From the IMG/VR virus record IMGVR_UViG_3300042898_000840, positions 1 to 62,323 of that record: a stretch of DNA of 62,323 nt; one strand, given 5' to 3'. This document shows, piece after piece, positions 1 to 40,583 of this stretch. The notes under the pieces were generated by a model, which was not told where the DNA came from, did no database searches, and saw only the letters and a list, made by a program, of their open reading frames with translations. The first letter of the stretch is position 1. Every line of letters begins with the position of its first letter. A program made the translations under genes and the position numbers. This DNA comes from a virus. Its lineage: Duplodnaviria; Caudoviricetes.

Positions 1-127
1 GTTATTAATAATAAATTTTAAATATGCCAAACGAAATCAAACCTGTTATTGTTGCCGATGATGGAATCAATAGATCTATCAAACCTGTTATTGTTGCTGA
101 CGATGGTGTCAACAAAGTAAAAAAAAA
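1..127. repeat. Terminal direct repeat (copy 1), identical to 62197-62323; circular assembly overlap
   Basis: The sequence matches the last 127 nt exactly. 127 is a common assembler k-mer size, and the 60663-62204 gene runs directly into the start of the 24-9119 gene across the junction. Confidence 0.95.
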
Positions 128-6100: not shown

Positions 6101-9100
6101 ACAAGATCAAATTAAGAAAGATGAGTTATTAGCTACTTATGATTTCTTGGAAGTTGATATGTCATTGAAAGACATGCAAGATGTAATCAATGCATTGAAA
6201 GATCCAACTAGTCAAATGGATATAACTGAAAAAGAAAAGTATGTCAAAGATTACTTGAATGGTAGATTTGGAATTATGTCATCAATACTTGAGTCAATGT
6301 TCAAGACAGGCATTGATCCAATGACTGGAGAGGAAATAACATTTGATGAAAAGCAAAAAGAACTAATTAAGAGAGCACTGAATATTGACTTGAATGAAAT
6401 GTCAGTTAGAGATGCAATTAAAATTGTTGAGAGCTTAGAGAATTTTATAACTAATCAAATAACAAGTGGACTTGAAGCAGCAGTTAGTTCTTATGAAGGA
6501 GCTATGAATGTCAAGTCACTTGTCAATAGAGGTAAGAAAGCTAAATCTTTGAGATTATTTTTTAGTAACTACATTGGTAAAATATATAGCGAGCAATTAT
6601 TTTCTCTTCCAATGTTAATGGAAAAGATGTTTGGTGGTGTAACTAATTCATTAGACGTAATGAATAAGATGGGTCTTATTAAATTAATCAATGGAGTTAA
6701 TAAAGCCAATAGACAACATAATGATATTTTAGACCAGTATTCAAAGCAACCTTTTTACTCTACAAAAAACGCTCTTGGTAAATATGTCATGAATAAAGAT
6801 TTCATGGATGCTGAGAATGTATACGAAAGAGGTATGCTTGCATTCTTGAAAAGAAATCTAGTCGGAAGTCCAGCTGAAATGAAAGCAGAGTTTGAAAGAA
6901 GAGTTAGAATGATACAAGAGTCTATCAATAAATTAACTGAAGATGGTGATCCTAAAGAACAAAAAATGGGAGAGCTGTATCAAAAGATTTATGATAAGCT
7001 AGGTGTATCAGAAATGGACATGGATGTAATTAATGCCAATGCATCAAAAAATAATTTAGATGCTGTTAATTGGTGGGTTAACCAATGGTCTCAACATTAT
7101 TCAGATTTATCAGATATAAGTTTGTCTGTGTACAATACTCAATTAGGTAGCGATTTAAACTATACTCCAGACAAGTATAAAAAGTTATCTTCAGAAAATC
7201 AATCACTTGATGAAGGAGCTGTTGAGAGAAATGGTGCTTTTGCAATATCTATAGATTATACCGATAAAAATAAGACTGGTGTACTTATGGAAACAACAAG
7301 ACCAAATGCAATGCCTGATGGTAGATATATTAGTCTTGATTTCGATACAAATAATTCAAAAGCATTAAAGTCGGCACTTACTGATATTAATACTGCTTCT
7401 GCTATTCGTCAAGTCGATGGTTTTATTAATTCAAAATCATTTAAGAAATTAATTCCTGAGTCTGAGGATAGGTCTATAATTACTAAGAGAATCAATACTT
7501 ATATCAGAAGAGCAAAAGGTAAAAGCATTGTTGCATCTGATACAATTCAATATCTTAATAAGCTTGTTAATTTTGCTACAGCTCTTGGCGTAGGTAAGGC
7601 ACTTGGTGGAATTAACCAAGCAGTAAGTCAAACAATTCCAGTAATGGTAAATACTATTGTGAATGCTGGGAGATTTGATTTTGCTGGAGCTGATTTCAAT
7701 ACTTGGTTAGATAAATCTGGACTTCCAATTTCAAATCGTGGTCTTGAATCACAATCAACAGTAGATTCAATTGATAGAAAAATAGATATGAAAGGAACTG
7801 GAGTTCAAGAAGCATTAAAGTCTGTTACTGATTTAAATCAATGGTACTTAAAGCAGTTCTTAGTTAGGCCTGATGTTTTTGTTGCTAGATCATCATTCAA
7901 GTCTTATTATTTACAAAATTTAAAACGCAGAGGATTAAGTACTGATATTGATTGGAATACGCATGAAATGGATATGGATGCTGCTGAATATGCTCAAGCT
8001 ATGATTGACAGACAGCAAAACATATCTGATCCTATGTTAGCAGGTGAATTTTTGTCAAGTGATGACCCAATTAAACAGATAGCTAGAAAAGTAATTCTTC
8101 CATTTGCTTCATTTATTCTTAACCAAAAGGCTAGGATGTATAATGATATGATGACTATTAGTAGTAAAACAACAAGTAGACAAGATAAAATAATTGCTTA
8201 TAGATCATTAACTGGACTAGCTACTGAATTAGCTACATATCAAATGATTGGATTTGGTATAAGAAGATTATATGATATGATTGCAGCGTCATTACTTGGT
8301 GATGAGGATGATGAGGAAACAAAGAAAAAGAAAATAATTAACGCTACTAAGTACCCAATAAAAAGTATAGTTAATGATATTTTTTCTCCAATCCCAATGA
8401 CTGATGGAATTACTACTTGGGGATTGAACCAAGCATTAGCTCAATATCCTTGGATGACAAATAAAGAAATAAAGGATGCGATTGAAAGCAGAAATAAGGT
8501 TCTAGAATTAAAGGGAGAATCTAATATGACTGAAGCTGAAGAGAAAGAATTTATTGCCAAGATTAAAGAAGAAGCAACATACCAAGTTTTTGAAGATGAA
8601 TTTAATAGAAGTTACGGTATGATTGGTATAGCAGGAAGTACTTATCAAGAGCTAGGTGAAATTGGTAATTTAGCCACAACAGGAGAATTTACTGATGAAT
8701 ATCAAGGTAGAGAAACTACTAAAAAACTATTAGAGTCAGATCGCGAAAAGGTAAAATACGCTGTTCCATTTATGATAGCATATTCAACTGGATTATTGCC
8801 AAAAGATGTAGGTTCAATAGGTAGAAACTATGTAAATAGAATCAAGAAGAAAGCTATTACTGAAAAGCAATTCGAACGATACGATGCTGTACAGAAAGAC
8901 TTAGGACGTAATCTTAAATCTTGGGAAGTAGAATTGGTGAAAGCTAAGAAGGAATCTGAAACAGCCGTAGATGAAGTGAAGTTCATCGAGCGAAATGGTG
9001 GATTGACAGAACGTCAAGGAAGAGAATACCTAAAGCTAATGAAAGCTATCGGTGAACCAAGTGTTTCAGATATAGTTAGAATTAAAGAAGGCCAAACAGC

Positions 9101-9119
9101 CGATCAAATTTTAAAGTAA
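24..9119 (+). CDS. Giant polyvalent protein, probably injected from the virion; contains a zincin-like HExxH peptidase and an ART-PolyVal-like ADP-ribosyltransferase domain
   Basis: 3031 aa; last of three genes after the tail module. MLHESMHH at ~3003-3026 with a downstream AEEYIAE. FKKWFGDW...NGEPLVVYHGT...FWFTS...VFLNSRNPL...NQIKSAT at ~4710-5310 matches the pattern of ART domains in polyvalent proteins. Confidence 0.8.
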   Translation: MPNEIKPVIVADDGINRSIKPVIVADDGVNKVKKKEVSQSTPNGKVISSEASKTEEQKRSDSLSSARRWSNVTEPKAVPSKYKTDDYIDVLENKPLKKKKVVTVQPDKYAPEVKVTEIDAPTEKEAEIMMEEDFGRKEFDAYQNINKIDKNIAFKTEDQAVKELRERFKGSGFIFETTGVGNKIKISTSTNGGLTTINSKEFDLIPSTLYGQSQTGMPVAQTEDLNRISNDKYNEIVDFMSKSILKKTDKDFLKKEVKDYGQLVNLMADNPYKYGEEFLNQYDTDRWFDNQYRDLVIESKSLKRDENQLLAQYDEFVKNPTSIEQESELKNKINSLDERKNILKSKYDDLGRLNDKLKVSSAVYYKNKEKQGNTVGLISKSFIKGAFNMEKALSGIAADVMPYVLPEGSLMPDVQREKLKASGMTDNEIKDYASKQLRKQIVPQIEKGLTDLVSFGTTDEYIQSKDRGDLEKVASFLSESIGTAISAGGNPALQKVAFFSQSYNAIEDEMNSSQFDGLNQFEKKLISVPYAMTIGALENLGFKFATGTTKNPIFNKLVNNIVFRTFSNLPKNASATLMQNELKRNTAAMLANAGLRIAGGALVEGAVEGTQQLDEIAIKNISNAITDKDYFQDVPDITTAKGINQAIGAAATDAYYGALGGLIMSSGSESISAIRDGYSNRKSDDDFAVFSNSLKDNNLRSSIESDIKSKIVSGDITKEEAKAQIESMNKSYSILKSIPDNLSLRDQRDSFNLILEKQKIQKETEGKDPALVAAQTDRVNEINEELKTISKNAVQVETTGEVPVQPRAEVGREMEEGESQTEPQVVAEKSKAIQEVIDRRRELLSLESQQKLDADPIEYTKQSLKESIDYYQSMDDINPIQEQILQEYKDDYNTLTSEKVVAEPIVRQEQQQNLVTQENVEELRSQQTTPRAQKIFTAAKLAMKALPGVKVYVHNTTQEFDQAIGQKSVDGAKGAYVDGEVHINLENGADVVTMLHESMHHGLVVKGIQSGAMLDLAKGLKSVVSDKGLKQRLEGFISGYDASETAEEYIAELGAIMAEAQQELTTTKFQQFKNLINKLAKKLGLPVVFAASANAKNAVDFMNSLTKSIATGQEIKPTTPYSVGEAVSVKPNAPMKVKYQRKAEYNVDFVTKIPTKSLKDVVDKYNGKVFMIQSDATGVGYDSNGDPIYGGIGYMAIKENVDGKIGFASVDMNTAKTTISKMINRYGPNEKIAVLVMVQNPSSTVGNYYGGKYFGRALIELQKQSKTNYKEIANSFIDFIESKQSVVDALNKNKTHQKLIELIKNPGKFDEVGFAQEFVKDTTFDVRREILKTLLPEKADIRTNKSTPYIKQSLKDLGFNRMAFLNEYGDNTLFTEDMYASDEGGLLAAGFEMTLPTAEGIDQFVSGIENRGIKHHLFNGKLPYTDESFLLDGLYPVNENFSEFAKSQMVFNEENLNKDQLKKIVQEKFPTDKSYDDKYTRVNSKNFVKTQDRTYTHLTSPNKIKFKAELQETNPEYFKEQRPDVSTDIARGMGFTAEKGAKQEALVEKAKTKGFSKVKFQKTAPNGKPSNLNDKQWEQVRTPEFKKWFGDWENDPANASKVVDENGEPLVVYHGTRESFDEFSSEVRPRNFRQEAVNYSFWFTSNEKNSELYGNQVMEVFLNSRNPLEIDYTNPESYREIVVPADKPRAMSIAEFNEKKGMIKHSEMTKGIELRMREDSTIDGIIHRNIKDIILSDNFQVFGPNQIKSATENVGTFSAETRNIKFQKDNTQKEAIQKAKEKYTLSVEDRGNPHKQGVDAALNDLRKSDWYKTTDDTQRENAERELKAFFGEKLKKAPSVAKILGKPKPKKVTVNEMTAYKNELRLQAKAARDAKGDLNAKRRALATAISGMAKTGKIKTAQASVLIKRISNLNLDNPVMVERFVDYASKVFDRADYQQRLDDAFSVRKSIRKLLKTDNQAEVSGMAKAFTKIDPSMVEDIDAYIEMAEKVKNAVKPSRVKGLDVVMKEAANIAEISEYTNEEIARQDQIKKDELLATYDFLEVDMSLKDMQDVINALKDPTSQMDITEKEKYVKDYLNGRFGIMSSILESMFKTGIDPMTGEEITFDEKQKELIKRALNIDLNEMSVRDAIKIVESLENFITNQITSGLEAAVSSYEGAMNVKSLVNRGKKAKSLRLFFSNYIGKIYSEQLFSLPMLMEKMFGGVTNSLDVMNKMGLIKLINGVNKANRQHNDILDQYSKQPFYSTKNALGKYVMNKDFMDAENVYERGMLAFLKRNLVGSPAEMKAEFERRVRMIQESINKLTEDGDPKEQKMGELYQKIYDKLGVSEMDMDVINANASKNNLDAVNWWVNQWSQHYSDLSDISLSVYNTQLGSDLNYTPDKYKKLSSENQSLDEGAVERNGAFAISIDYTDKNKTGVLMETTRPNAMPDGRYISLDFDTNNSKALKSALTDINTASAIRQVDGFINSKSFKKLIPESEDRSIITKRINTYIRRAKGKSIVASDTIQYLNKLVNFATALGVGKALGGINQAVSQTIPVMVNTIVNAGRFDFAGADFNTWLDKSGLPISNRGLESQSTVDSIDRKIDMKGTGVQEALKSVTDLNQWYLKQFLVRPDVFVARSSFKSYYLQNLKRRGLSTDIDWNTHEMDMDAAEYAQAMIDRQQNISDPMLAGEFLSSDDPIKQIARKVILPFASFILNQKARMYNDMMTISSKTTSRQDKIIAYRSLTGLATELATYQMIGFGIRRLYDMIAASLLGDEDDEETKKKKIINATKYPIKSIVNDIFSPIPMTDGITTWGLNQALAQYPWMTNKEIKDAIESRNKVLELKGESNMTEAEEKEFIAKIKEEATYQVFEDEFNRSYGMIGIAGSTYQELGEIGNLATTGEFTDEYQGRETTKKLLESDREKVKYAVPFMIAYSTGLLPKDVGSIGRNYVNRIKKKAITEKQFERYDAVQKDLGRNLKSWEVELVKAKKESETAVDEVKFIERNGGLTERQGREYLKLMKAIGEPSVSDIVRIKEGQTADQILK
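36..115 (+). repeat. Imperfect 42-bp tandem duplication encoding IKPVIVADDG twice
   Basis: atcaaacctgttattgttgc(c/t)ga(t/c)gatgg occurs at 36 and 78. Confidence 0.9.
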
Positions 9120-25966: not shown

Positions 25967-26158
25967 TTATAGATTGCAAAAAAAGTCTTCATCGGTAAAC
26001 ATTATACCTTCATGTTTTTTTATTACATAATCCATTCTCATTTGATTAGGTAGATAAACCGCATCAAGCTTATCGGGATCGTTATCTAATAAATAGTTGA
26101 AATAATTAACTCTTAATTCTTCTAACTCATCTTGGTTTAATTCGTGTACTGTTCTCAT
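25967..26158 (-). CDS. Small early protein
   Basis: tagccATG start; 63 aa. Confidence 0.7.
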   Translation of the reverse strand: MRTVHELNQDELEELRVNYFNYLLDNDPDKLDAVYLPNQMRMDYVIKKHEGIMFTDEDFFCNL

Positions 26159-26160
26159 GG

Positions 26161-26385
26161 CTATTTAAATTTAAAAATTGTTAGTAGGTTAATCATTCTG
26201 TATGCTCTCTTATGAACATCGTATACGACCATTAAGTTATGGTCATTTGGATCGAATCGCAATCCGATCCCTTTGATGTTCTTCTTTACTCCCAGTCGAG
26301 CGGTCATTCTTCTTTCTGTGCCATCCTTCTTGATGAAACTAACGGAAAAGAATCTTCCGTTAGTGGCTAAAATCTGTTCTTTCAT
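26161..26385 (-). CDS. Small SH3/WYL-like beta-barrel protein
   Basis: FFSVSFIKKDGTERRM...VVYDV...YRMIN. Confidence 0.65.
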   Translation of the reverse strand: MKEQILATNGRFFSVSFIKKDGTERRMTARLGVKKNIKGIGLRFDPNDHNLMVVYDVHKRAYRMINLLTIFKFK

Positions 26386-26920
26386 ATTGATATATTTCTT
26401 GGTTATAAAATAAACTTACATAGGAATCTTTGATATCCCATGGTTCTTCAAATCGTTCGTTCTCACAGATGAACTGTAGTATACTTCCTACTTGATGTTC
26501 ATTCCATTTGTTCATCCAATCCTTTGGATCGTTTGAATGATAAGATATGAATCCGTCGCGAGAAGTGTACGTGTGTTTGATATACTCGCTGAATTTCTCG
26601 TAGTTATCTTTGAGGTATTGTTTTACCTTAGTCTTATTTAACGTTATCTCGCAGTATATTGTATCATCGCTGAAGTTGTAGTACTTTGGACTTACCAATC
26701 TTTCGAATTCAATGTGTGATACAAAGTCTGATAAAAGGTATTGAACTTCGTTACACATCTCTTTTGATATGTGATTGTAGTAACTTGTCCAATCAACGAA
26801 TTCCCAAAACTCCTTGTCACTTGGTAATTCGAAGATGTCTTCTTCACCATCGAAACATGGTTCGCTCCAGTGCGAATTGTAGAATCCACTGAATAGTGGT
26901 AGATATGTTTTTGCTTTCAT
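26360..26920 (-). CDS. Early hypothetical protein
   Basis: LPLFSGFYNS...SPKYYNFSDD...YTSRDGFISY. Confidence 0.7.
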   Translation of the reverse strand: MKAKTYLPLFSGFYNSHWSEPCFDGEEDIFELPSDKEFWEFVDWTSYYNHISKEMCNEVQYLLSDFVSHIEFERLVSPKYYNFSDDTIYCEITLNKTKVKQYLKDNYEKFSEYIKHTYTSRDGFISYHSNDPKDWMNKWNEHQVGSILQFICENERFEEPWDIKDSYVSLFYNQEIYQYERTDFSH

Positions 26921-26923
26921 GGC

Positions 26924-27109
26924 TTAAAATTTTGTTTTGGTTAAAAAATATTTATAAACTTCAGGAATATGTTTTTTGTAGTAAGGCTGTTCTGACTTAC
27001 ACCATTTTTTCAATTCTTCTTTATCTTTGAATGTTTGGTATTTGAATGTTATTTCTAATTCATCTATAAAATCTTGGACTGTCCATCCTTCCCATACGTG
27101 TCTATTCAT
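26924..27109 (-). CDS. Small early protein
   Basis: HVWEGWTVQDFIDEL...WCKSEQPYYKK. Confidence 0.7.
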   Translation of the reverse strand: MNRHVWEGWTVQDFIDELEITFKYQTFKDKEELKKWCKSEQPYYKKHIPEVYKYFLTKTKF

Positions 27110-27120
27110 GGCTATTTGTT

Positions 27121-27396
27121 TTACTCAGCGCACAATTCCCATGGCTGAAGATTAATAATTGCTTTTGTTCCTCCTAACTGCTTGACAATAAATCTTGCTA
27201 GCTTTCTATTTACTTTTTCATCTTGGATATGTGCACTACCAATTTGTTTCACGAGGTCTCTTGGTGATATACCTAGTATTCTATGGCAGAACTTAACGTC
27301 CTGCCCTAGATAGAATGATTTGTAACGTGATTTTGTTTTGATAATTAATGTCCAATTTCGATCGAATCCGTAATTCGATGATATTACTATGTTCAT
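27121..27396 (-). CDS. Small early protein
   Basis: FYLGQDVKFC; operonic. Confidence 0.7.
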   Translation of the reverse strand: MNIVISSNYGFDRNWTLIIKTKSRYKSFYLGQDVKFCHRILGISPRDLVKQIGSAHIQDEKVNRKLARFIVKQLGGTKAIINLQPWELCAE

Positions 27397-27398
27397 GA

Positions 27399-28106
27399 TT
27401 AATGGTTTAATATGTAAATTGATTTGTTTGATTTTGTTCCTAGTGTACCACTACACAAACCACATTTGCTACATGTAGACTTGAATCCTGCTTCCTTGCT
27501 TGCAGGACAATTGACAATTCCATCAATCTTTGATTCCGTAGCAATGTAACTTCTATATCCTTTCATCCTTGCGATAATCTCTCCGTTGATGTCATGCGTA
27601 GATGCCATGAAGAATTCACTTAATTCGTTACGCATCCATTGGTGAGTATATCCAGTCCAATTGTCTGCTACATTTGTCATTTCCTGAATCATCTTAATTG
27701 GGTGCAATGATGGTTCACCATACGTTCCGAATCGAACGAATGTTGATTTTGACATTTCTCTTGCTTTAAGAATCATATCGTACTTGAATGTAGGTACATT
27801 TTCGAATGTTGGATATTCTTTCGCAATACTTTTTAGCATGCTGATAAACCCAACATACTGATTGAATTTGTGCGTATAACATTTTCCGAATTCATTGAAT
27901 GGACAATCCAAGCAATTTGTATCAGCGTTACTGAAGAATGTCTTCATTCCATCATTCGTTCCATTGGCAATCAATTCATACTGTTTTCTGCTGAATGTGT
28001 ACGTTTGGACAATTTTTCTTTTCTTGTCTGATTCAATCTTATTGTTGCTAGTGGTTGACTTGCTGATTACTTGCAATGTGTCACCAATTCTAAAAATTAG
28101 TTTCAT
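27399..28106 (-). CDS. Cys-rich, putative Fe-S / radical-SAM-like phage protein
   Basis: CLDCP..CY, VRFGTYGEP, WTGYTHQW, FMAS, CPAS...CSKCGLC. Confidence 0.6.
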   Translation of the reverse strand: MKLIFRIGDTLQVISKSTTSNNKIESDKKRKIVQTYTFSRKQYELIANGTNDGMKTFFSNADTNCLDCPFNEFGKCYTHKFNQYVGFISMLKSIAKEYPTFENVPTFKYDMILKAREMSKSTFVRFGTYGEPSLHPIKMIQEMTNVADNWTGYTHQWMRNELSEFFMASTHDINGEIIARMKGYRSYIATESKIDGIVNCPASKEAGFKSTCSKCGLCSGTLGTKSNKSIYILNH

Positions 28107-28119
28107 GGTTATTTGTTTT

Positions 28120-28175
28120 GGTTAATATGCCGTATCACTACGGCATTTCGGATCATAAATCCTCATCAGTTAACC
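28120..28175 (-). ncRNA. Type I hammerhead ribozyme (HH-A)
   Basis: GGTTAA CTGATGA GGAT-ttatg-ATCC GAAA TGCCGTA-gtga-TACGGCA TA^TTAACC: full core, three perfect stems, AUA triplet. Confidence 0.92.
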
Positions 28176-28393
28176 TTTATTTCATTAATTATTTTGATCT
28201 CATATTCTAAATTATAAGACTGTACCGCGATCCCTCCACCATATTGTTTGTTATGGAATTTTCGACCGCTAATTTTTTTAGCTAGTTTTAAAGCGGTTGG
28301 ATAATCATCCGCTAATTGTAAGAAATGAAAAACATAACGTGGGTTTCCGTTTACGTCATTGTTTACTCTTGTAAAATCTTCTTTTGTTATCAT
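28166..28393 (-). CDS. Small early protein; its stop codon lies within the hammerhead core
   Basis: NNDVNGNPRYV...KQYGGGI; ends KVN-TGA. Confidence 0.75.
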   Translation of the reverse strand: MITKEDFTRVNNDVNGNPRYVFHFLQLADDYPTALKLAKKISGRKFHNKQYGGGIAVQSYNLEYEIKIINEIKVN

Positions 28394-28398
28394 GATTC

Positions 28399-28473
28399 CT
28401 ATTTTTTAAGTGTTATTATTTTCAATGTTGCTACAATGCTATACAATAGCATTAAATAAACAAATGTTCCCAT
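28399..28473 (-). CDS. 24-aa hydrophobic peptide
   Basis: MGTFVYLMLLYSIVATLKIITLKK; tagccATG start; fills the gap exactly. Confidence 0.5.
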   Translation of the reverse strand: MGTFVYLMLLYSIVATLKIITLKK

Positions 28474-28475
28474 GG

Positions 28476-28622
28476 CTAGTAATATATTTCGTTTAACGTG
28501 TACTTGTACTTCTTACAGACATAATTAATGAAGTTATTCATGTGGTTTATGTCGTTAAAATCTCTATTTACCACTACTATATCTTTGTGGTAAGGAGTAT
28601 AAAATTCGATTATTGCTTTCAT
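28476..28622 (-). CDS. Small early protein (48 aa)
   Basis: MKAIIEFYTPYHKD...; ATGA overlap. Confidence 0.6.
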   Translation of the reverse strand: MKAIIEFYTPYHKDIVVVNRDFNDINHMNNFINYVCKKYKYTLNEIYY

Positions 28623-28729
28623 CGTTGTTCAAATGGTATTAATACTTTTCTTGTTTTAATTAACGTTCCGTTAAGGAAAAATCCCCAAATCTCGAATTTA
28701 CCTTCTATCTTTAAAATTTGTGTTGACAT
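28619..28729 (-). CDS. Small early protein (36 aa)
   Basis: MSTQILKIEGKFEIWGFFLNG...; tagccATG start directly after hammerhead HH-B. Confidence 0.6.
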   Translation of the reverse strand: MSTQILKIEGKFEIWGFFLNGTLIKTRKVLIPFEQR

Positions 28730-28745
28730 GGCTAAAAATTTAATT

Positions 28746-28799
28746 GGTTAATACGGCAATCGCTTGCCGTTTCATCCATTTAGGAATCATCAGTTAACC
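28746..28799 (-). ncRNA. Type I hammerhead ribozyme (HH-B)
   Basis: GGTTAA CTGATGA T-TCC-taaat-GGA-T GAAA CGGCAA-gcga-TTGCCG TA^TTAACC; GUA triplet; U-U at the base of stem II. Confidence 0.88.
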
Positions 28800-28972
28800 T
28801 GTGAAGAAAATAAAATTGAAGAAATAAAGCCCATAAAACCACCACCATAAAACAAGGTAGCCATTATTGGCTCATGGTTAATGTATAGACTTTCGTTTGA
28901 AAATGTTACTACTGCTGAAGTAATTGAAGTAATCCCAAAGATCACCATCATTAATAAAAAAATTGTTTTCAT
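28790..28972 (-). CDS. Small membrane protein, first early gene; its stop codon lies within the hammerhead core
   Basis: Two hydrophobic segments; ends QVN-TGA. Confidence 0.7.
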   Translation of the reverse strand: MKTIFLLMMVIFGITSITSAVVTFSNESLYINHEPIMATLFYGGGFMGFISSILFSSQVN

Positions 28973-28995
28973 GGTTATTTATTTAATTGGTTAGT

Positions 28996-29041
28996 GCTTC
29001 CGTTCGTATCGCTCGAATAAAATTGTCATTCAATCGGAAGC
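28996..29041 (-). ncRNA. Candidate three-way-junction RNA (tRNA-elbow-like)
   Basis: GCTTCCG [ATTG-aatga-CAAT] ttta [TTCG-agcgata-CGAA] CGGAAGC. Confidence 0.6.
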
Positions 29042-29418
29042 TATAATTGTTAACTTGCATCACGCTTATATAGATGGAATCAAACCACCACAAGTTATTA
29101 AAGTATTATGTAATTTTCTTTGGTATATTATCGAAACAATAGAGAAAATTTAGGTCTATTGTACCAAGGTCTTCCACCTCTAGAGTAAGCCTATAAGCAA
29201 CTATTTTACACTCTATCTTTTTTTTGCAATCTTTTTCACTTGCCGAGAATCAATGAACGTTTACTTTAACAAAGGTCTAAACTATTTTTGACATTTCCTA
29301 ACTTTTTAACAAATTTTTGTTGAAAGCTACTTAATCAATCTATACTCATCGTACGTACATATTAAGTCTTTTAACATTGCTAGTAAGGATTTGTATTGTT
29401 TAGCTCGTTTGCTTATAA

Positions 29419-29448
29419 CAAAGATACGTCAGTTTTTCAGATTGTCAA
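29419..29448 (-). promoter_or_regulatory. Early promoter (-33 TTG, -7 TATCTTTG)
   Basis: TTG-N19-TATCTTTG matches the Bacteroidota sigma70 consensus and points into the early operon. Confidence 0.7.
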
Positions 29449-29737
29449 CAATTTTTTCTTGAAAGATTATCAAAATACGTATTTACACTTAGAAACGTCT
29501 ACGTAGTTTCACTTAGTTAAGACAGATATCGTGACTGAATAAATTACGTAAATGGCTATGAATCAGTAAGTTATAAGATATTAATATATTTAACATGAAA
29601 TACGTTTTTAATTAGTGAATTGAATTGAGATGTAACCCCCACAAGCCAAACGCACAATATTGTATGCATGTTTGAATGCATAACTAATTGATTATCAGTC
29701 AGTCACGCGGTTAGATTGGTGGTCTGATTGACTTTCT

Positions 29738-29765
29738 ATTTAACATAATTAATATTATATTACAA
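29738..29765 (-). other. dif-like XerC/XerD recombination site
   Basis: TTGTAATATAA-TATTAA-TTATGTTAAAT: 11-6-11 layout with a perfect XerD arm. Confidence 0.75.
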
Positions 29766-29845
29766 AGGTCGATTGGTCGGCATGTCAGCGCGCGTATGTT
29801 GGTGTCAATAACGTAATGCATGGAGACGCGTATACATCAACTAAC

Positions 29846-29897
29846 GGCAGGCAGGCAGACACACACGAACGGCAGGCAGGCAGGCAGGCAGGCAGGC
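29846..29897 (+). repeat. (GGCA)n microsatellite in two blocks (3 and 6 units)
   Basis: Direct reading. Confidence 0.9.
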
Positions 29898-30038
29898 TAG
29901 CAAAAAGCTGAAAATCTCAGCCGAAAAAACCAAATTGCACACCCCCCAGTCAATTTTTAGATCGTTTCCCCCGCGCGCAATTTTTCGTGGAATGGGGGTA
30001 TTACCCAAAAATTCCGTATATTTACCAAAAAAAAAGAT

Positions 30039-30410
30039 ATGCCGAAAGAAGTAAAAGTAGTCGACAAGACTTGGAGAAAGCGTCCATTTGGACAAGAGGG
30101 GATTATGAAAGATCCGAACAATCCGTATCCAGTTGATACTGAGAAACACACTACAGTAACAAGGGGTGGCAAGGTAAAGAAGAAGGTTGTTGGTGTAAAT
30201 AGGGAGACATCTCCAACTTTTTATGAGCCTGACTCGGAGCAGAGCGTAAAGATAACTAAGTTTAATAGGTCTGGAAAAGAAAAGAAGACTGTATCTCTTG
30301 TAAAGGATGAGAGCGGTAAGATAAAGAAGACTGTTAGTCGTAATGGCAAGGAGGCAGTAAGTGTTAAGCCAGGATTATTGGCTAACAGACGAATAAAAAA
30401 ATATATTTAA
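30039..30410 (+). CDS. Lys-rich hypothetical protein
   Basis: First gene of the plus-strand arm. Confidence 0.7.
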   Translation: MPKEVKVVDKTWRKRPFGQEGIMKDPNNPYPVDTEKHTTVTRGGKVKKKVVGVNRETSPTFYEPDSEQSVKITKFNRSGKEKKTVSLVKDESGKIKKTVSRNGKEAVSVKPGLLANRRIKKYI

Positions 30411-30534
30411 TTTTGCATATATTAATTGACATACCGCAAGGCTTATTGTTAGGATTTGAGTTCTATGGGCCTGACGAGGATTATGACTTTAATGAGTTAC
30501 AGATCAGTTTATTAATTTTAAGATTTACGATAAC

Positions 30535-32103
30535 ATGGCATTAATGAAGACAGGGAGAAAGCCGTATGGTGAAGACCCAAAGAAACCAAAAACGAATGGT
30601 GACAATCCAAAAACTCAACAAGAGGTAAAGGTAACTGCTAAGAAGCAGTATACTTGGGATGACGTTTCAAAGAGCGAAGATATAAAGTCGCGTAATAAGG
30701 CAGCTAAACAGCAGTATGAATCTGACGTAGCAAACTACAACAGGTCTATGAAGCTTTATAATGAGGGTGCTTCTTATGATGTTTCTAATGAAAACTTGTC
30801 TAAGGTTAATAAATCAGGAACTAGTATTAAGGGCAAGCCTGTTACATATACAGCTGCTACTGGTGGTACGTCAGCTAAAGAGATGAGTGATGCATATGAT
30901 AAGGGTATTAAGTCTGGTGAATATGTTGATATCAATGACCCTCGTATTAGTGAGAAGAACAGGTATTATATAAAGGGAGCTATGATGAGTGGAAGAGATA
31001 AAAGTTCTAATAAATGGGGAACTGTTAAAAATAAAGCTATTCCAGCATCTGTTGCGTTTGACAAGGATTTAAATTTCAAGAAGATTTATGATGGTGAGGA
31101 TTTCGATCCGTATGAATTTGAGAAAGCTGCTAAAAGTGGCAAGTTTGATGAGTACTCAAAAAAGCAGGGGATGTCAGGTAAATCTTATGCACCAAGCTTT
31201 GGATATTTAGAAAAATATGGAAAGCCAGAGCAAGCTAAAGTACCTGCATACGAGAAGGAGATGAGTATTGATGTTAACAGAGTTCCTTTGCCTAAAATGG
31301 AGAAAAAGAAGTCTGATGTCAAACCATTAAGAATATCTGAATCAAAGTCTACATCTACTGAGAAGCCAGATTGGGAAGAGCCAAAGGGATCTACGAAATA
31401 TAGAACAAAATATAGCTTACCTGACATCAGCACGACTGATAAGGGTAAAAGTTTAGGTAGATTTGTGGCTGCTAAAGTTAAGTCAATTGGTAAAGACAAT
31501 GCTCTTACTCCTAGTTTAATAAAAGAACAAGGTAAAGAAAGGTTGATTCAAGGTAAATCAGGTAGAGAGGCCAAGATGGCGAAAGCTTATTTTGGTGGTG
31601 GATATGAAGGCCAGTCAAAATTTGACATTGAGGGAACTTCTGAGGAGCGTGGAAGAATAGGCGCACTTAAGGCCGACAAGGCCGACTTTAGTAAGGGTAT
31701 TAGAGAAGCTAGAAAAGCTGGAGATAGAGAAAAGGTACAAGGTTATAGAGCGGCTAAGAAAGACGTTAAGTCTGAAATCAAGCAAGCGAAGTTAGCTAGT
31801 AAGTATTTAACAAAGCTAGGTCAAGAGTTCACAGGTGTTAGAGAGGGTCAAGAGTTAAGAAGCACTGGTAAGATAAAGGCAAATACTCCTGCTGCATATC
31901 TTGGTTTTACAGGTTCTAAGCAAGATACATATAACTCTGACGCTAACTTCAATAAGTTTTTAGCTAAGAGTTCAACTGACAATCCTGCTAATCGAAACAC
32001 TATACCAAAACAAATGGAGACTGTTGAGCCAAAGATGACTAGATCTCAGAGGAAAGAGGACAGAAAAACACAGGAAAAAGTTATGAAAAACATGAAAAAC
32101 TAA
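30535..32103 (+). CDS. Lys-rich, low-complexity hypothetical protein
   Basis: 522-aa ORF followed by a terminator. Confidence 0.8.
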   Translation: MALMKTGRKPYGEDPKKPKTNGDNPKTQQEVKVTAKKQYTWDDVSKSEDIKSRNKAAKQQYESDVANYNRSMKLYNEGASYDVSNENLSKVNKSGTSIKGKPVTYTAATGGTSAKEMSDAYDKGIKSGEYVDINDPRISEKNRYYIKGAMMSGRDKSSNKWGTVKNKAIPASVAFDKDLNFKKIYDGEDFDPYEFEKAAKSGKFDEYSKKQGMSGKSYAPSFGYLEKYGKPEQAKVPAYEKEMSIDVNRVPLPKMEKKKSDVKPLRISESKSTSTEKPDWEEPKGSTKYRTKYSLPDISTTDKGKSLGRFVAAKVKSIGKDNALTPSLIKEQGKERLIQGKSGREAKMAKAYFGGGYEGQSKFDIEGTSEERGRIGALKADKADFSKGIREARKAGDREKVQGYRAAKKDVKSEIKQAKLASKYLTKLGQEFTGVREGQELRSTGKIKANTPAAYLGFTGSKQDTYNSDANFNKFLAKSSTDNPANRNTIPKQMETVEPKMTRSQRKEDRKTQEKVMKNMKN

Positions 32104-32109
32104 AAAATT

Positions 32110-32132
32110 ACCCTCCAATCGGAGGGTTTTTT
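32110..32132 (+). terminator. Intrinsic terminator
   Basis: accctcc-aatc-ggagggt followed by a T-run. Confidence 0.8.
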
Positions 32133-32144
32133 GTTTTATTTCAT

Positions 32145-32152
32145 TAAATTTG
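32145..32152 (+). promoter_or_regulatory. TAnnTTTG promoter box for the chaperonin genes
   Basis: TAAATTTG 17 nt before ATG 32170. Confidence 0.6.
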
Positions 32153-32169
32153 TGTCAAAATACAATAAA

Positions 32170-33729
32170 ATGATAGTAAAACAAGTTCATTTTGGCGATG
32201 AAGGCCAAAAAAAGCTCAAGAAAGGCATCAAAACGATAGCTGGAGCTGTAAAAAGTACGTTAGGAGCAAGAGGACGTACAGTGTTAATTGAATCAGAGAA
32301 CCATGTTGGAGGTATGACGGTGACGAAGGACGGTGTTACTGTTGCTAAGTCGATCAACTTGTATGATCCGACTGAGAATTTGGCTGTAATGATGATGCGT
32401 CAAGCGGCAGAGCGAACTGCTACTGTTGCTGGTGATGGAACTACTACATCAATCGTGTTGGCTGAGGCTATTATTGACGCTGCCGATAAATACTTGTCGG
32501 AAACAGACAACGTTACTGAGGTAATTCGTGAGATCAACCATCTTGCTAGCATTGTTGTCTATAAATTGGACAAGAGGTCTAAGAAGTTAAGCGGCAAGAA
32601 GCTCGTTGACGTAGCAACTATAAGTGCGAACAATGACAAGGAGGTAGGTAAGATGATTGCTGATGCCTTTAGTGAGGTTGACATGGTTACTGTTGAGAAC
32701 AGCCAGACTACAAGCACGTATGTTGAGATAATTAAGGGTATGAAGATCGATAGGGGTTATGCTTCTAGAGTATTCATCAATGACTTCAAGAAGCAGGAGT
32801 GTGTGTTAGATAATCCGTACATTTTGATAAGTGATCATGAGATAAATAATATCATGAATTTGGAGCGTATTTTAGTTCCTATAGTGAGCCAAGGAAGGTC
32901 TTTACTTATAATTGGTGAGTTAGGTCAGAACGCATTGAATACGTTAAATGCCAATGTTGCTGGTGGTAAGATTAAGGCTTGTTCGATATTGCCTCCATCG
33001 TTTGGATACAGGAAGAAAGACTTGCTAGAAGATTTATCAGTCGCTTTGGGTGGTGTTTACTTCTCTGAGGACACTGGCGATGATTTGTCGTTAATAGATT
33101 TAGACAGTTTAGGTAGAGCTACTAAGGTTATTGTTAGTAACAACATGACGGTGTTCATGCATAGTGAGTCTAGGGAGGAAGAGATCAACAATAGAATTAT
33201 TAATCTTAAGGAGATGCGTGATGCGTCAACTAACGATAATGAGAAGAACTTCTTGAATGAGCGAATTGCCAATCTATCGGGTGGTGTTGGTGTAATCTAT
33301 GTAGGAGCGTTAAGTGACATTGAGCAGAAGGAGAAGAAGGATCGGATTGATGATGCTGTGTGTGCTGTTCAAGCTGCGTTGGAGGATGGTATATTACCTG
33401 GTGGTGGTGTAGCGTTGTTGGATATTGGTCTTACTATGTGTATACATGATACAGCAGCTGATAAGATAATGGGTGAAGCATTAAGAGCACCATTCAATCA
33501 GATTGTCACAAATTCTGGTAAGAATTGTTACGATATATTAATGAATCGACCTATGGGTGATGGCTATGACGTGAAGGGTGAGCAGTATGGCGACATGGTT
33601 AAGTTGGGTATTATTGATCCTACAAAAGTTACTAAGAATGCACTATTGAATGCTGTGTCAGTTGCAACGACAATTATGAGTACGAATGCTATTATCACAA
33701 ATGTAAGAGACTATGAAGGTTCTAAATAA
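32170..33729 (+). CDS. groL: Chaperonin GroEL (phage-encoded)
   Basis: TKDGVTVA, AGDGTTT, ERIANLSGGV, PGGG, GIIDPTKV; start moved to ATG 32170. Confidence 0.97.
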   Translation: MIVKQVHFGDEGQKKLKKGIKTIAGAVKSTLGARGRTVLIESENHVGGMTVTKDGVTVAKSINLYDPTENLAVMMMRQAAERTATVAGDGTTTSIVLAEAIIDAADKYLSETDNVTEVIREINHLASIVVYKLDKRSKKLSGKKLVDVATISANNDKEVGKMIADAFSEVDMVTVENSQTTSTYVEIIKGMKIDRGYASRVFINDFKKQECVLDNPYILISDHEINNIMNLERILVPIVSQGRSLLIIGELGQNALNTLNANVAGGKIKACSILPPSFGYRKKDLLEDLSVALGGVYFSEDTGDDLSLIDLDSLGRATKVIVSNNMTVFMHSESREEEINNRIINLKEMRDASTNDNEKNFLNERIANLSGGVGVIYVGALSDIEQKEKKDRIDDAVCAVQAALEDGILPGGGVALLDIGLTMCIHDTAADKIMGEALRAPFNQIVTNSGKNCYDILMNRPMGDGYDVKGEQYGDMVKLGIIDPTKVTKNALLNAVSVATTIMSTNAIITNVRDYEGSK

Positions 33730-36318: not shown

Positions 36319-37467
36319 ATGGCAATTCAAATAGCTATATCTAATGCTGTTGGATCAAGGAGTAGATCAACTTCAACTCCAACTGATTTCATTTCTGTAT
36401 GGGATACAGCACTAGGCGATGGAAACCCTTCCATTATACTTCCATTAGTTGCTTCTGGAAATTACAACTTTAGTGTAAACTGGGGTGATGGAAACACTGA
36501 CACAATCACAGCTTGGAATCAAGCAGAAACAACTCACACATACGCAACAGGTGGTGAATATACTCTAACAATCACAGGAACAATTGAGGGTTGGCAATTT
36601 CAAGGTGTTGGAGATTTTCAAAAAATTACTTCAATCACAGATGTTGGATTACTTAAACTAGGAAATGAAGGTTCATATTTTACGGGATGTTCAAACTTAA
36701 CCACAATTGGAGGTACATTTGATTTAATAGGAACTACAAATTTATATTATATGTTTTTGGATTGTAGTTCATTAACTTCAGTAAATGGTATTGAATCTTG
36801 GGATGTATCTGCTGTAACTAATATGGGTGGTATGTTTAACAATGCAACAGCATTTGATCAAGACATTAGTGGATGGGATGTATCTTCTGTAACTGATATG
36901 AATAGTATGTTTAACAATGCAACAGCATTTGATCAAGACATTAGTGGATGGGATGTATCTTCTGTAACTGATATGAATTATATGTTCTATGGTACAATAT
37001 TCAACCAACCATTAAATTCATGGAATACTTCAGCTGTAAAAAGTATGAATAGTATGTTTGCTAATGCAACCGCATTCAACCAATCATTAAATTCATGGAA
37101 CACTTCAGCTGTAACTGATATGAGTTATATGTTCTATGGTACAATATTCAACCAATCATTAAATTCATGGAACACTTCAGCTGTAACTGATATGAGTTAT
37201 ATGTTCTATGGTACAATAGCATTCAACCAAGATATTAGTTCATGGGACATTTCTAATGTAATATATTTGAGTAGTTTTATGGATGTTAAATCAACAGCAG
37301 ATTATGATTACTATGATGATCTATTAAATGCTTGGTCTCTATTAACTCTGCAAAATGATGTAACTTGGGGAATGGGTTCAATTGAATATACTTCTGCTGG
37401 AGCAACAGCAAGACAGGATATCATTGACAACTATTCATGGATAATTACTGATGGTGGAGAAATATGA
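36319..37467 (+). CDS. BspA/DUF285 repeat surface protein with PKD-like N-terminal domain
   Basis: VNWGDG...[10 protein letters not shown]; 24-25-aa repeats [13 protein letters not shown]..A.AF.Q. Confidence 0.85.
36796..37250 (+). repeat. 72-75-bp tandem repeats encoding DUF285 units
   Basis: Near-identical nucleotide copies, e.g. at 36874 and 36949. Confidence 0.85.
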
Positions 37468-40137: not shown

Positions 40138-40583
40138 AATATATAATCCCAATTTTTATTATATTACTATCATGCACACCTCAACGAAGGTTTGACAGGT
40201 TAGTTAAAAAGTATCCATATCTTTTAACCAATGACAGCCTTATTATTAGAGATACGATAAGAGATACCATTCGTATCACTATACCTGAAGTTGAAGTCGA
40301 TACAATTGTAAGTATAAAGGATTTATATGATACAGTTATTATAGAGAAAGATCGTATAAAAATACAAGTGTATCGAGTAAAAGACAAGGTTTATATTAGT
40401 GGAAAATGTGATACTGTATATATCGAAAAGCCTATAGAACGGATAGTCTACAGGAAGATACCTATTAAGATATACGAAAAGACTCCTTGGTATAAGATAC
40501 TGCTTAATAATGTTCTAGGAATTTTATTAATTTTGCTAGTAATATATATTACGTACAGAATTATAAAAAACTACTTACTTTGA
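40134..40583 (+). CDS. Lipoprotein with C-terminal TM; unimolecular spanin-like
   Basis: LLSC lipobox, DT-rich beta region, C-terminal hydrophobic helix; precedes the holin and endolysin. Confidence 0.65.
   Translation: MKYIIPIFIILLSCTPQRRFDRLVKKYPYLLTNDSLIIRDTIRDTIRITIPEVEVDTIVSIKDLYDTVIIEKDRIKIQVYRVKDKVYISGKCDTVYIEKPIERIVYRKIPIKIYEKTPWYKILLNNVLGILLILLVIYITYRIIKNYLL

What the first reader, a model, noticed from the sequence alone, without database searches (positions are those of the whole stretch)
28120..29041. Ribozyme-punctuated early operon: stop codons built into hammerhead catalytic cores
Seen: two hammerheads lie 626 nt apart at gene junctions of the first-transcribed operon. In both, the upstream ORF ends x-V-N-stop (GTT AAC TGA), so its last codons supply stem I and its UGA is part of CUGAUGA. 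The predicted cut lies 19 and 22 nt before the next ATG and leaves matching leaders, UUAACCAA...(A/G)CCAUG. Stems II and III differ in sequence but keep their pairing, which suggests selection on structure. A third, different structured element sits before the first gene and is followed by the same TAACCAATTAAA leader as HH-B. Established: hammerheads cleave after NUH, giving 5'-OH and 2',3'-cyclic phosphate ends. Inference: the phage self-processes its early mRNA into defined units without host RNases. A terminating ribosome would cover the core, so cleavage could be gated by translation of the upstream gene.
Basis: partly seen in the sequence, partly recalled or inferred. Interest (0 to 1): 0.92.

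Follow-up and report, generated by a model that had tools for sequence, protein, structure and literature searches.

The report
Hammerhead ribozymes between phage early genes
Two self-cutting hammerhead RNA motifs sit exactly between small genes of a phage, a known kind of arrangement, but they belong to a large, tightly built and so far unlisted subfamily that could make the long-unclear job of phage ribozymes testable.

Summary
On the minus strand two complete type I hammerhead motifs lie at gene junctions. HH-A spans 28177-28118 and would cut between 28126 and 28125. HH-B spans 28801-28744 and would cut between 28752 and 28751. Each overlaps the upstream ORF's V-N-UGA end, and the cuts lie 19 and 22 nt before the next ATG.

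They are not chance: a structural descriptor finds only these 2 in the window, against 0.01 expected.

Both belong to a subfamily in viral contigs, 135 unique copies in 86 loci. It has a fixed GGUUAA/UUAACC stem I, a 13-nt stem II and strong covariation. Rfam's thresholds do not capture it.

The core-UGA stop is not specially selected. Across the subfamily the ribozyme supplies stops in all three frames (81 of 117 junctions), and orthologous junctions in close relatives use different ones.

The hammerheads come and go between near-identical phages, with homology breaks at their edges.

The third element is a conserved 5'-UTR hairpin. It matches no known ribozyme.

Ribozyme-flanked phage genes were described in 2011 (PMC3088659). 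Cleavage, the early timing of the operon and gating by ribosomes remain untested.

The parts
28744..28801 (-). HH-B, type I hammerhead. Stem I 28799-28794 with 28751-28746; core C3-A9 28793-28787; stem II 28786-28774; G12A13A14 28773-28771; stem III 28770-28753; H17 28752. Predicted cut between 28752 and 28751.
   Evidence: Descriptor hit. Subfamily model R1 scores 68.6 bits, but this sequence was in the seed. The hammerhead fold is -16.4 kcal/mol against an MFE of -16.9. It has a U.U mismatch at 10.1-11.1.
28118..28177 (-). HH-A, type I hammerhead. Stem I 28175-28170 with 28125-28120; core 28169-28163; stem II 28162-28150; GAA 28149-28147; stem III 28146-28127; H17 28126. Predicted cut between 28126 and 28125.
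   Evidence: Descriptor hit. The MFE fold is the hammerhead fold, -19.1 kcal/mol, z = -4.35. R1 scores 67.8 bits, but this sequence was in the seed.
28790..28972 (-). 60-aa hydrophobic small ORF, first gene of the block. It ends QVN-TGA inside the HH-B core.
   Evidence: Homologues in L118-L121 are 40-61% identical.
28730..28751 (-). 22-nt A/U-rich leader that HH-B cleavage would leave, before the ATG at 28729.
28619..28729 (-). 36-aa ORF directly downstream of HH-B.
   Evidence: It is 83-89% identical in L118-L121.
28476..28622 (-). 48-aa ORF.
   Evidence: It is 62-96% identical in L118-L121.
28166..28393 (-). 75-aa ORF of the Phage_TreK family. It ends KVN-TGA inside the HH-A core.
   Evidence: Pfam PF24229, 72 bits against a cut-off of 22. 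phrog_3164.
28107..28125 (-). 19-nt leader that HH-A cleavage would leave, before the ATG at 28106.
27399..28106 (-). 235-aa ORF downstream of HH-A; function unknown.
   Evidence: phrog_2554. Relatives L118-L130.
28996..29041 (-). Third element: a hairpin, GCUUCCG ... CGGAAGC with an inner stem. It is followed by AC and the leader UAACCAAUUAAA (28993-28982), 21 nt before the ATG at 28972.
   Evidence: Fold z = -2.25. Conserved in L118-L120. L119 has a compensatory G/C insertion and L121 a different 11-bp hairpin. No Rfam match at E <= 10.
29065..29093 (-). Highly conserved block upstream of the hairpin. I read it as promoter-like (TTGTGG, 17 nt, TATAAG). It contains a T-arm-like hairpin, GGUGG-UUUGAUU-CCAUC.
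   Evidence: Single copy in the window. The surrounding stretch is 96.6% identical in L119 while the flanks are about 76%. L121 carries a compensatory change. The promoter reading is my inference; the scan tool did not list this site.

Best explanation
HH-A and HH-B are genuine type I hammerhead self-cleaving ribozymes in the sense strand of a polycistronic transcript of small, probably early, phage genes.

They belong to a compact 'junction module' that is widespread in phages. Its 5' part (A-GGUUAA-CUGAUGA, then stem II) carries stop codons in all three frames, so whatever ORF runs into it is terminated. Its 3' part (UUAACC-AA plus an A/U-rich stretch) becomes the 5' end of the next cistron.

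After transcription the RNA folds. Loop II probably docks on the nucleotides that flank the 6-bp stem I. The RNA then cuts itself after H17.

The upstream mRNA is left ending in the two ribozyme hairpins with a 2',3'-cyclic phosphate. The downstream mRNA starts with a 5'-OH and an unstructured leader of about 22 nt without a Shine-Dalgarno sequence.

The likely effect is to uncouple the stability and translation of neighbouring small genes without any host RNase.

What is shown: motif anatomy, covariation, placement and subfamily statistics. What is inferred: cleavage in vivo, the fates of the two RNA ends and the benefit to the phage.
For: Core and stems:
- Both motifs have the full consensus: CUGAUGA, GAA, an A15.1-U16.1 pair, H17 = A and three stems.
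- Only 2 descriptor hits occur in 62 kb, against 0.01 expected.

Subfamily:
- A pattern that demands no pairing found 139 matches in 117 viral stretches. Of these, 99 fold correctly, against a mean of 0.21 after shuffling the interiors.
- In a 46-member alignment 99.5% of cells pair. Twelve of 16 pairs change on both sides, and 0 of 500 shuffles reach the observed values. Those 46 were pre-selected for minimal pairing.
- The subfamily model R1 found 132 hits in 100 loci at E <= 0.001 and 37 in 30 further loci at E <= 0.1.

Tertiary contact:
- The first loop II nucleotide covaries with the nucleotide 5' of stem I (U/A 109, A/U 5).
- The last loop II nucleotide covaries with the nucleotide 3' of stem I (U/A 100, A/U 7, in three separate sequence contexts).
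- Stem II is 13 nt in 117 of 137 copies.

Placement:
- In 114 of 117 junctions with an upstream ORF of at least 40 aa, the stop lies between 15 nt before C3 and loop II. In 81 of those 117 it is made of ribozyme nucleotides.
- The cut lies 16-32 nt before an ORF-opening ATG in 123 of 135 copies, with a mode of 22.
- Leaders are 56% A and 5% G. Fourteen of 123 hold an SD-like tetramer.
- Downstream ORFs are small: median 69 aa, and 102 of 118 are 130 aa or shorter. Successive hammerheads have a median spacing of 488 nt.

Precedent: clustered hammerheads that flank genes in prophages cleave in vitro and in E. coli (PMC3088659, section 6).
Against: - No cleavage or RNA-end data exist for this phage.
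- Rfam finds no hammerhead in the window, even at E <= 10. The near-identical copy in L119 scores below the gathering thresholds: RF00163 26.3 against 34, and RF03152 30.1 against 56.3.
- HH-B has a U.U mismatch at 10.1-11.1, and its hammerhead fold is not the MFE.
- The hammerheads are dispensable at a given junction. L118 lacks HH-B; L120 and L121 lack HH-A; relatives at 47-69% protein identity have none within 2.5 kb.
- A spacing of about 16 nt between a structured element and a start codon may only reflect genome compaction.
- The subfamily set was seeded with a pattern that fixed the stem I sequence. Conservation of stem I is therefore partly by selection of the sample.
Confidence: 0.62

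Rival explanations
1. The hammerheads are mainly portable or selfish junction cassettes. Their invariant 15-nt 5' part and the UUAACCAA leader serve as short homologies for swapping small-gene cassettes between phages. Cleavage is incidental or only mildly useful.
For: - The hammerheads are presence/absence polymorphisms between phages whose flanking genes are 83-96% identical.
- Homology with relatives starts or stops at hammerhead edges: window 28176 with L119, 28800 with L121, 28746 with L118.
- The same HH-A (identical stem III) follows unrelated upstream genes in the window and in L119. Both are fused as ..VN-stop.
- In L118 an extra gene plus a hammerhead sits between two copies of the leader.
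- The site where L118 lacks HH-B is flanked in the other phages by an ATTAAA direct repeat.
- One 'empty' junction, TAG-GTTAACCAA-leader-ATG, was seen in L036.
Against: Neutral DNA repeats would not keep the stems paired through changes on both sides, nor keep loop-flank covariation. Those point to selection on the folded RNA. The two readings are compatible, since an active ribozyme can also mark cassette borders.
Confidence: 0.2
2. One reading: the upstream gene's UGA lies in the catalytic core so that a terminating ribosome gates cleavage. Processing would then depend on translation of the upstream gene.
For: - In both window copies the stop is U4-G5-A6.
- In nearly all subfamily members the upstream stop lies within 15 nt of, or inside, the ribozyme. 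A terminating ribosome must therefore melt stem I and the core. This follows from the known ribosome footprint and is an inference.
- Reading frame c, which runs through the whole core, is depleted: frames a, b and c count 54, 49 and 14, chi-square p = 5e-6. Relatedness among contigs was not corrected for.
Against: - Only 22 of 117 junctions use the core UGA. That is fewer than the UAA in stem I (36) and below the one third expected for a random frame.
- At the HH-B junction the orthologous 60-aa gene ends on the stem I UAA in L119 and L120. In L121 an inserted 55-aa ORF stops in loop II. The particular overlap is therefore not conserved.
- Tight packing is general in phage genomes.
Confidence: 0.15
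3. Because all copies share the same stem I, the 5'-OH end made by HH-B can pair with the 5' strand of stem I in HH-A. The 626-nt RNA between the two cuts could then be circularised, or the segment spliced out, by hammerhead-catalysed or RtcB-type ligation.
For: Stem I is identical in both window copies and in 103 of 137 subfamily copies. The cleavage chemistry gives ligatable ends (established knowledge). Perreault et al. raised this possibility (PMC3088659).
Against: - Perreault et al. report that they could not detect spliced or circular products.
- Stem I is conserved across unrelated phages, not just within a genome. Loci such as L049 mix UUAACC and UUAAUC copies. This fits a structural or tertiary constraint better.
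- 56 of 86 loci show a single hammerhead, although many loci are fragments.
Confidence: 0.07
4. The motifs are inactive look-alikes that act only as RNA or DNA structures, for example protective hairpins, a protein-binding site or an RNase target.
For: No Rfam family reaches threshold. Stem I is short and has no internal loop. HH-B has a non-canonical 10.1-11.1.
Against: All core nucleotides scored in the 46-member alignment are invariant except N7, which is free in hammerheads. Simple hairpins would not need CUGANGA...GAAA, nor an H17 that is never G. H17 counts are C 89 and A 25 of 114, but my descriptor excluded G.
Confidence: 0.06

Closest known systems
Clustered hammerhead ribozymes flanking genes in prophages (Perreault et al. 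2011, PMC3088659; section 6 and passages read)
   Same: Several hammerheads lie close together on the coding strand and flank single genes or short gene blocks whose identities vary. The authors proposed that long phage transcripts are processed. Three such arrangements cleaved in vitro and one cleaved in E. coli.
   Different: That paper stresses type II ribozymes with loop-loop pseudoknots in prophages. Here the ribozymes are type I with a nearly invariant 6-bp stem I, a 4-bp stem II and a UNANU loop. The passages I read do not mention stop-codon overlap, a fixed leader length or presence/absence polymorphism. Its supplements were not seen.
Rfam RF00163 Hammerhead_1 and RF03152 RAGATH-1-hammerhead
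   Same: Same topology (stem I open) and same core. The relative L119 aligns to both models over their full length.
   Different: Scores are below gathering: 26.3 against 34, and 30.1 against 56.3. The window copies were not reported even at E <= 10. None of 12 hammerhead-rich loci gave any family at gathering. RAGATH-1 has an extra upstream hairpin and a ucuua/uaaga stem I.
Hammerhead variant of haloviruses HF1/HF2, 13 nt upstream of a helicase start codon (PMC3088659, Discussion passage)
   Same: A ribozyme cut lies just upstream of the first ORF of an early polycistronic transcript. A mapped 5' end lies within 3 nt of the cleavage site.
   Different: It is an archaeal virus with a single copy and a variant core.
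Type I hammerheads in 5' UTRs and intergenic regions of RNA mycoviruses (PMC13725137, passages read)
   Same: A type I hammerhead with a long stem III fills a short intergenic region. The cut lies a few nucleotides before the next start codon, and the authors link it to translation of the downstream ORF.
   Different: Those are eukaryotic RNA viruses. The authors state that those ribozymes seem to lack the usual loop-loop contacts. Here the genome is that of a DNA phage and covariation suggests a tertiary contact.
RNase III processing sites of the phage T7 early operon (recalled, no call)
   Same: Works alike. Cuts between the cistrons of an early polycistronic mRNA leave a hairpin at the 3' end of each upstream message.
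   Different: T7 depends on a host enzyme that cuts double-stranded RNA. Here the RNA would cut itself, giving 5'-OH and 2',3'-cyclic phosphate ends.
PeSL (promoter-early stem-loop) repeats bordering mobile gene cassettes in T4-type phages (recalled, no call)
   Same: Short conserved intergenic repeats at the borders of small early-gene cassettes that differ between related phages.
   Different: PeSLs are a promoter plus a terminator-like hairpin, not ribozymes.

Membership tests
Hammerhead ribozyme, type I | Three helices around a junction, with stem I open and stems II and III closed by loops | tested here: met
   Both copies meet it. Across the subfamily, 99.5% of cells are paired and 12 of 16 pairs change on both sides.
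Hammerhead ribozyme, type I | Core C3-U4-G5-A6-N7-G8-A9, G12-A13-A14, A15.1-U16.1 pair, and H17 not G | tested here: met
   Both copies have CUGAUGA, GAA, A-U and H17 = A. These columns are invariant in the 46-member alignment.
Hammerhead ribozyme, type I | Watson-Crick pair at 10.1-11.1 (usually G-C) | tested here: inconclusive
   HH-A has G-C. HH-B has U.U, as do L004 and L116 (3 of 46). The effect on activity is unknown.
Hammerhead ribozyme, type I | Tertiary contact between stem I and loop II, which allows fast cleavage at low Mg2+ | tested here: inconclusive
   Loop II end nucleotides covary with the nucleotides that flank stem I, and helix lengths are fixed. The A/U class rests on few lineages and no 3D test was done. 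HH-A has G where the last loop nucleotide is usually U.
Hammerhead ribozyme, type I | Site-specific self-cleavage after H17 | not testable with these tools
   No holder on record as RNA was listed. The one run laid (contigs, RNA only guessed) was uninformative.
Rfam RF00163 / RF03152 (database membership) | Score at or above the family's gathering threshold | tested here: not met
   No hit in the window at gathering or at E <= 10. L119 is sub-threshold. Twelve further loci gave nothing.
Known self-cleaving ribozyme (any class), for the third element 29041-28996 | Match to a curated ribozyme model, or a conserved core | tested here: not met
   No ribozyme family at E <= 10. The interior is replaced by an unrelated plain hairpin in L121.
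Early (first-transcribed) operon | A promoter used first after infection; early timing of the transcripts | not testable with these tools
   Only context is available. The genes are small ORFs at the head of the leftward replication arm. There is a TreK-family gene and a conserved promoter-like block.

The most novel reading that the evidence does not exclude
This hammerhead subfamily is a universal, portable intercistronic 'punctuation' module of phages whose hosts initiate translation without Shine-Dalgarno pairing, probably many of them Bacteroidota. One unit of about 80 nt does three jobs. It terminates any incoming reading frame through stops in all three frames. It cuts the RNA. It hands the next gene a 5'-OH leader of about 22 nt, rich in A and free of structure, that favours 5'-end-proximal initiation. 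Because its borders are invariant, it also serves as the joint at which small early-gene cassettes are exchanged between phages.
Probability: 0.3. Interest if true: 0.75.

Novelty: new variant of a known kind. Interest (0 to 1): 0.5.

Why it matters
The biological purpose of the thousands of genomic hammerheads in bacteria and phages is still called unknown in reviews (PMC6765202, passage read).

This locus and its subfamily offer a clean, repeatable system for testing it:
- The ribozyme fills the whole gap between two genes.
- It overlaps the upstream stop and sets the 5' end of the next message at a fixed distance.
- It exists as natural presence/absence alleles between otherwise near-identical phages. 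Those alleles are ready-made controls for a test of its effect on expression.

The subfamily also escapes Rfam's current thresholds. Phage annotation therefore misses it, and a dedicated model would be useful.

Tried and rejected
**Rfam searches**
- The gathering scan of the whole window gave only a tRNA-like hit at 18501-18560.
- The scan of 27900-29300 at E <= 10 gave 8 weak matches to unrelated families and no ribozyme. I treat these as chance. The SAM-II match (24.2 against 44 bits) lies inside the TreK-like ORF.
- The phage collection (blastn, 'distant' mode) holds no relative of 26000-31000 apart from a 93-nt match to an Aeromonas phage.

**RNA evidence**
- No RNA holder was listed. One run with a guessed RNA label held 0.06 of the sampled words.
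- Laying its contigs gave 8 short pieces, 6 of them under 90% alike, and nothing that bears on the cut sites.
- This is not evidence either way.

**Further hammerheads in the window**
- Model R1 with filters off found only the two seed copies. Nine other hits scored 13.3 bits or less, at E >= 1.2.
- I inspected the two best, at 25180-25132 and 40196-40231, and rejected them as remnants.

**Third element as a ribozyme**
- I tried by eye to fit a type III or a permuted hammerhead. The core is absent, so I rejected both.

**Other side checks**
- The 75-nt insert in L118 and L119 between the conserved block and the hairpin is not significantly structured (z = -0.53).
- I considered the T-arm-like block at 29093-29065 as a tRNA remnant or attachment site. 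No tRNA model matches it, and I did not look for an integrase.
- The sigma-70 scan gave 11 sites against 10.7 expected, which is not informative. Its best row (29448-29421, TTGACA, 16 nt, TATCTT) also reads TAtcTTTG. That resembles the Bacteroidetes -7 motif as I recall it.

**Host**
- The genome-contig pattern scan gave 16 stretches. About half carry Bacteroidota names. Fifteen are MAG contigs, and one is an isolate chromosome, Paraflavitalea. MAG labels are weak evidence of host.

**Literature**
- Searches found no paper on stop-codon overlap or fixed leaders of phage hammerheads.
- Supplements, including the Perreault alignments, were closed and may contain members of this subfamily.

**Tools**
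Full report
**What is there**

The window is a complete 62,323-bp virus record with a 127-bp direct terminal repeat.
- Genes from 9268 to about 29000 run on the minus strand. They include exonucleases, a helicase and a BT4734-type primase.
- Genes from 30039 onward run on the plus strand. They include a large terminase subunit, a portal protein and a GroEL-like protein.
- The two arms diverge from a non-coding region of about 1 kb (29100-30040).

The leftward arm opens with five small ORFs:
- 60 aa (28972-28790)
- 36 aa (28729-28619)
- 48 aa (28622-28476)
- 75 aa (28393-28166, Pfam Phage_TreK)
- 235 aa (28106-27399, phrog_2554)

The two motifs read as follows:
- A-GGUUAA-CUGAUGA, then a 13-nt stem II, GAA, a stem III hairpin that opens with A and closes with U, an unpaired A, and UUAACC-AA.
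- The UGA of each core is the stop codon of the upstream ORF (..KVN* and ..QVN*).
- The predicted cuts (28126/28125 and 28752/28751) are 626 nt apart. They lie 19 and 22 nt before the next ATG.

**Is it more than chance?**

- A loose pattern gives 2 matches against 0.08 expected.
- A descriptor that also demands the three stems and a non-G H17 gives exactly these 2 hits in both strands of the window. The mean in 100 Markov-1 simulations was 0.01.
- The hammerhead fold is the minimum-energy fold of HH-A (-19.1 kcal/mol, z = -4.35).
- For HH-B the hammerhead fold lies 0.5 kcal/mol above the minimum.
- HH-B has a U.U mismatch at 10.1-11.1. The same variant occurs in L004 and L116, so 3 of the 46 aligned members carry it.

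**A large subfamily**

Rfam 15 reports no hammerhead in the window at gathering or at E <= 10. In the close relative L119 the same ribozymes score below threshold: Hammerhead_1 26.3 against 34 bits, and RAGATH-1-hammerhead 30.1 against 56.3. Twelve hammerhead-rich loci gave nothing at gathering.

- The pattern demands no pairing in stems II and III. Of 139 matches, 99 have proper stems, against a mean of 0.21 when the interiors are shuffled.
- A 46-member alignment (one per locus, pre-selected by my descriptor) shows the core invariant apart from N7.
- In that alignment 99.5% of cells are paired and 12 of 16 pairs change on both sides. All four Watson-Crick types occur at most positions of stems II and III. 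None of 500 shuffles reaches the observed values, and slid registers drop to 22-42% paired.
- A covariance model built from it finds 132 copies in 100 loci at E <= 0.001 and 37 in 30 more loci at E <= 0.1.

The subfamily has four regular features:
- Stem I is A-GGUUAA / UUAACC-A in 103 of 137 copies, with compensated variants such as GAUUAA/UUAAUC. The seed pattern fixed most of this sequence, so its conservation is partly by sampling.
- Stem II is 13 nt in 117 of 137 copies.
- Loop II reads U-N-A-N-U.
- The first and last loop nucleotides covary with the nucleotides just outside stem I: U/A 109 and A/U 5; U/A 100 and A/U 7, the latter in three separate sequence contexts.

I read these covariations as two tertiary pairs that dock loop II on the end of stem I. 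That would explain the fixed helix lengths. It is an inference and rests on few lineages.

**Placement in the subfamily**

I analysed 135 unique copies in 86 loci, the window included.

Upstream stop (117 copies have an upstream ORF of at least 40 aa):
- UAA inside stem I: 36
- UGA of the core: 22 (these ORFs end KVN, QVN or EVN in 20 of the 22)
- UAG overlapping the 5' edge: 18
- U[AG]A in loop II: 5
- 7-15 nt before C3: 33
- elsewhere: 3

The ribozyme therefore supplies the stop in 81 of 117 junctions and offers stops in all three frames. The three frames are used 54, 49 and 14 times (chi-square p = 5e-6, not corrected for relatedness). The frame that must cross the whole core is the depleted one.

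Downstream start:
- The cut lies 16-32 nt before an ORF-opening ATG in 123 of 135 copies, with a mode of 22.
- Those leaders are 56% A and 5% G. Only 14 of 123 hold an SD-like tetramer.
- The window's own genes are also SD-poor: 7 of 47 against a background of 8%.
- Downstream ORFs are small: median 69 aa, and 102 of 118 are 130 aa or shorter.
- Successive hammerheads have a median spacing of 488 nt.

The window's arrangement is thus typical of the subfamily. The core-UGA overlap is one of several outcomes and is not enriched.

**Close relatives**

Five contigs encode the 235-aa protein at 90-94% identity. Comparing them gives four results:
- The orthologous 60-aa gene ends on the core UGA in the window but on the stem I UAA in L119 and L120. 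In L121 an extra 55-aa ORF reads through the core (..RLTDED*) and stops in loop II.
- HH-A, with an identical stem III, follows the TreK-like gene in the window and an unrelated 80-aa gene in L119. Both are fused as ..VN*.
- L118 lacks a hammerhead at the HH-B junction, which in the other phages is flanked by an ATTAAA direct repeat. It has one instead before the 60-aa gene, after an inserted gene. L120 and L121 lack HH-A.
- Homology with relatives starts or ends at hammerhead edges: 28176, 28800 and 28746.

Relatives at 47-69% protein identity have no hammerhead within 2.5 kb. The ribozymes are therefore mobile or quickly turned over. They travel with the downstream leader and gene, and they mark cassette borders.

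**The third element**

- It is a hairpin at 29041-28996 (GCUUCCG...CGGAAGC with an inner stem). It is followed by AC-UAACCAAUUAAA and lies 21 nt before the first ATG.
- It is conserved in L118-L120. L119 carries a compensatory G/C insertion. In L121 it is replaced by an unrelated 11-bp hairpin, z = -3.56.
- No ribozyme model matches it and no hammerhead core can be fitted.
- I take it for a 5'-UTR stem-loop of the primary transcript. A protective or processing role is a guess.
- Upstream lies a very conserved 29-nt block (29093-29065). I read it as promoter-like. It contains a T-arm-like hairpin with a compensatory change in L121.
- 'First-transcribed' remains an inference from gene order and the TreK-family gene.

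**Mechanism**

The best reading (0.62) is that both motifs self-cleave in the polycistronic RNA. The upstream message is left capped by the ribozyme hairpins. The next cistron receives a short, A-rich 5'-OH leader.

The precedent is Perreault et al. 2011. They described clustered hammerheads that flank varying genes in prophages, showed cleavage in vitro and in E. coli, and proposed processing of long phage transcripts (PMC3088659).

The rivals are:
- a mainly recombinational or selfish role (0.2; compatible with the best reading);
- ribosome gating through the core stop (0.15);
- circularisation through matched stem I (0.07);
- inactive look-alikes (0.06).

**Novelty**

Ribozyme-punctuated phage operons are known. 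The following appear unlisted: the tightly defined type I subfamily, its three-frame stops, the fixed leader, the candidate tertiary pairs and the natural presence/absence alleles. Rfam thresholds miss them. My six literature searches found nothing on them, but supplements were closed.

Noticed in passing
window 18333-18560 (minus strand): Two odd tRNA-like genes. The first, 18560-18501, has acceptor, D and T arms but almost nothing where the anticodon arm should be (Rfam tRNA 42.9 bits). The second, about 18435-18333, has a 7-bp acceptor stem, a T arm and a 3' ACCA, with an insert of about 45 nt in place of the anticodon region. ARAGORN reports neither.
   Followed up: partly
window 29065-29093 (minus strand): A 29-nt block upstream of the first small gene. 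The stretch around it is 96.6% identical in L119 while the flanks are about 76%. It holds a T-arm-like hairpin (GGUGG-UUUGAUU-CCAUC) with a compensatory double change in L121. It could be a promoter, a tRNA remnant or another RNA element.
   Followed up: partly
window 1-127 and 62197-62323: An exact 127-bp direct terminal repeat. The record is a complete virus genome.
   Followed up: yes
window 24-9119 (+): A 3031-aa ORF with an ADP-ribosyltransferase domain of polyvalent proteins (PF18760, residues 1604-1757). It is probably an injected multi-domain protein.
   Followed up: partly
window 29845-29905 (minus strand reading): A run of CTGC/CTGCC repeats in the divergent non-coding region between the two gene arms. 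Its role is unknown.
   Followed up: no
window 36799-37292 (+): Six tandem copies of a 72-75-nt unit inside the 382-aa ORF 36319-37467, that is, a repeat-domain protein.
   Followed up: no
L139, L143, L148 (genome contigs MAG contigs): Very dense hammerhead arrays of the same subfamily: 8, 6 and 5 descriptor hits in 5.8, 2.7 and 2.9 kb. The contigs are binned as Aliivibrio and Gammaproteobacteria.
   Followed up: no
L118 1172-1237 and L119 about 767-845: A 75-nt insertion between the conserved promoter-like block and the 5'-UTR hairpin. It is absent from the window, not significantly structured, and matches no Rfam family.
   Followed up: partly
L036 10867 (+): An 'empty' junction, TAG-GTTAACCAA-leader-ATG. 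It looks like a hammerhead site without the ribozyme body, and would fit gain or loss through the TTAAC direct repeat formed by stem I plus C3.
   Followed up: no
window 32131-33729 (+): A phage-encoded GroEL-like chaperonin (phrog_5725, E = 1.8e-126).
   Followed up: no
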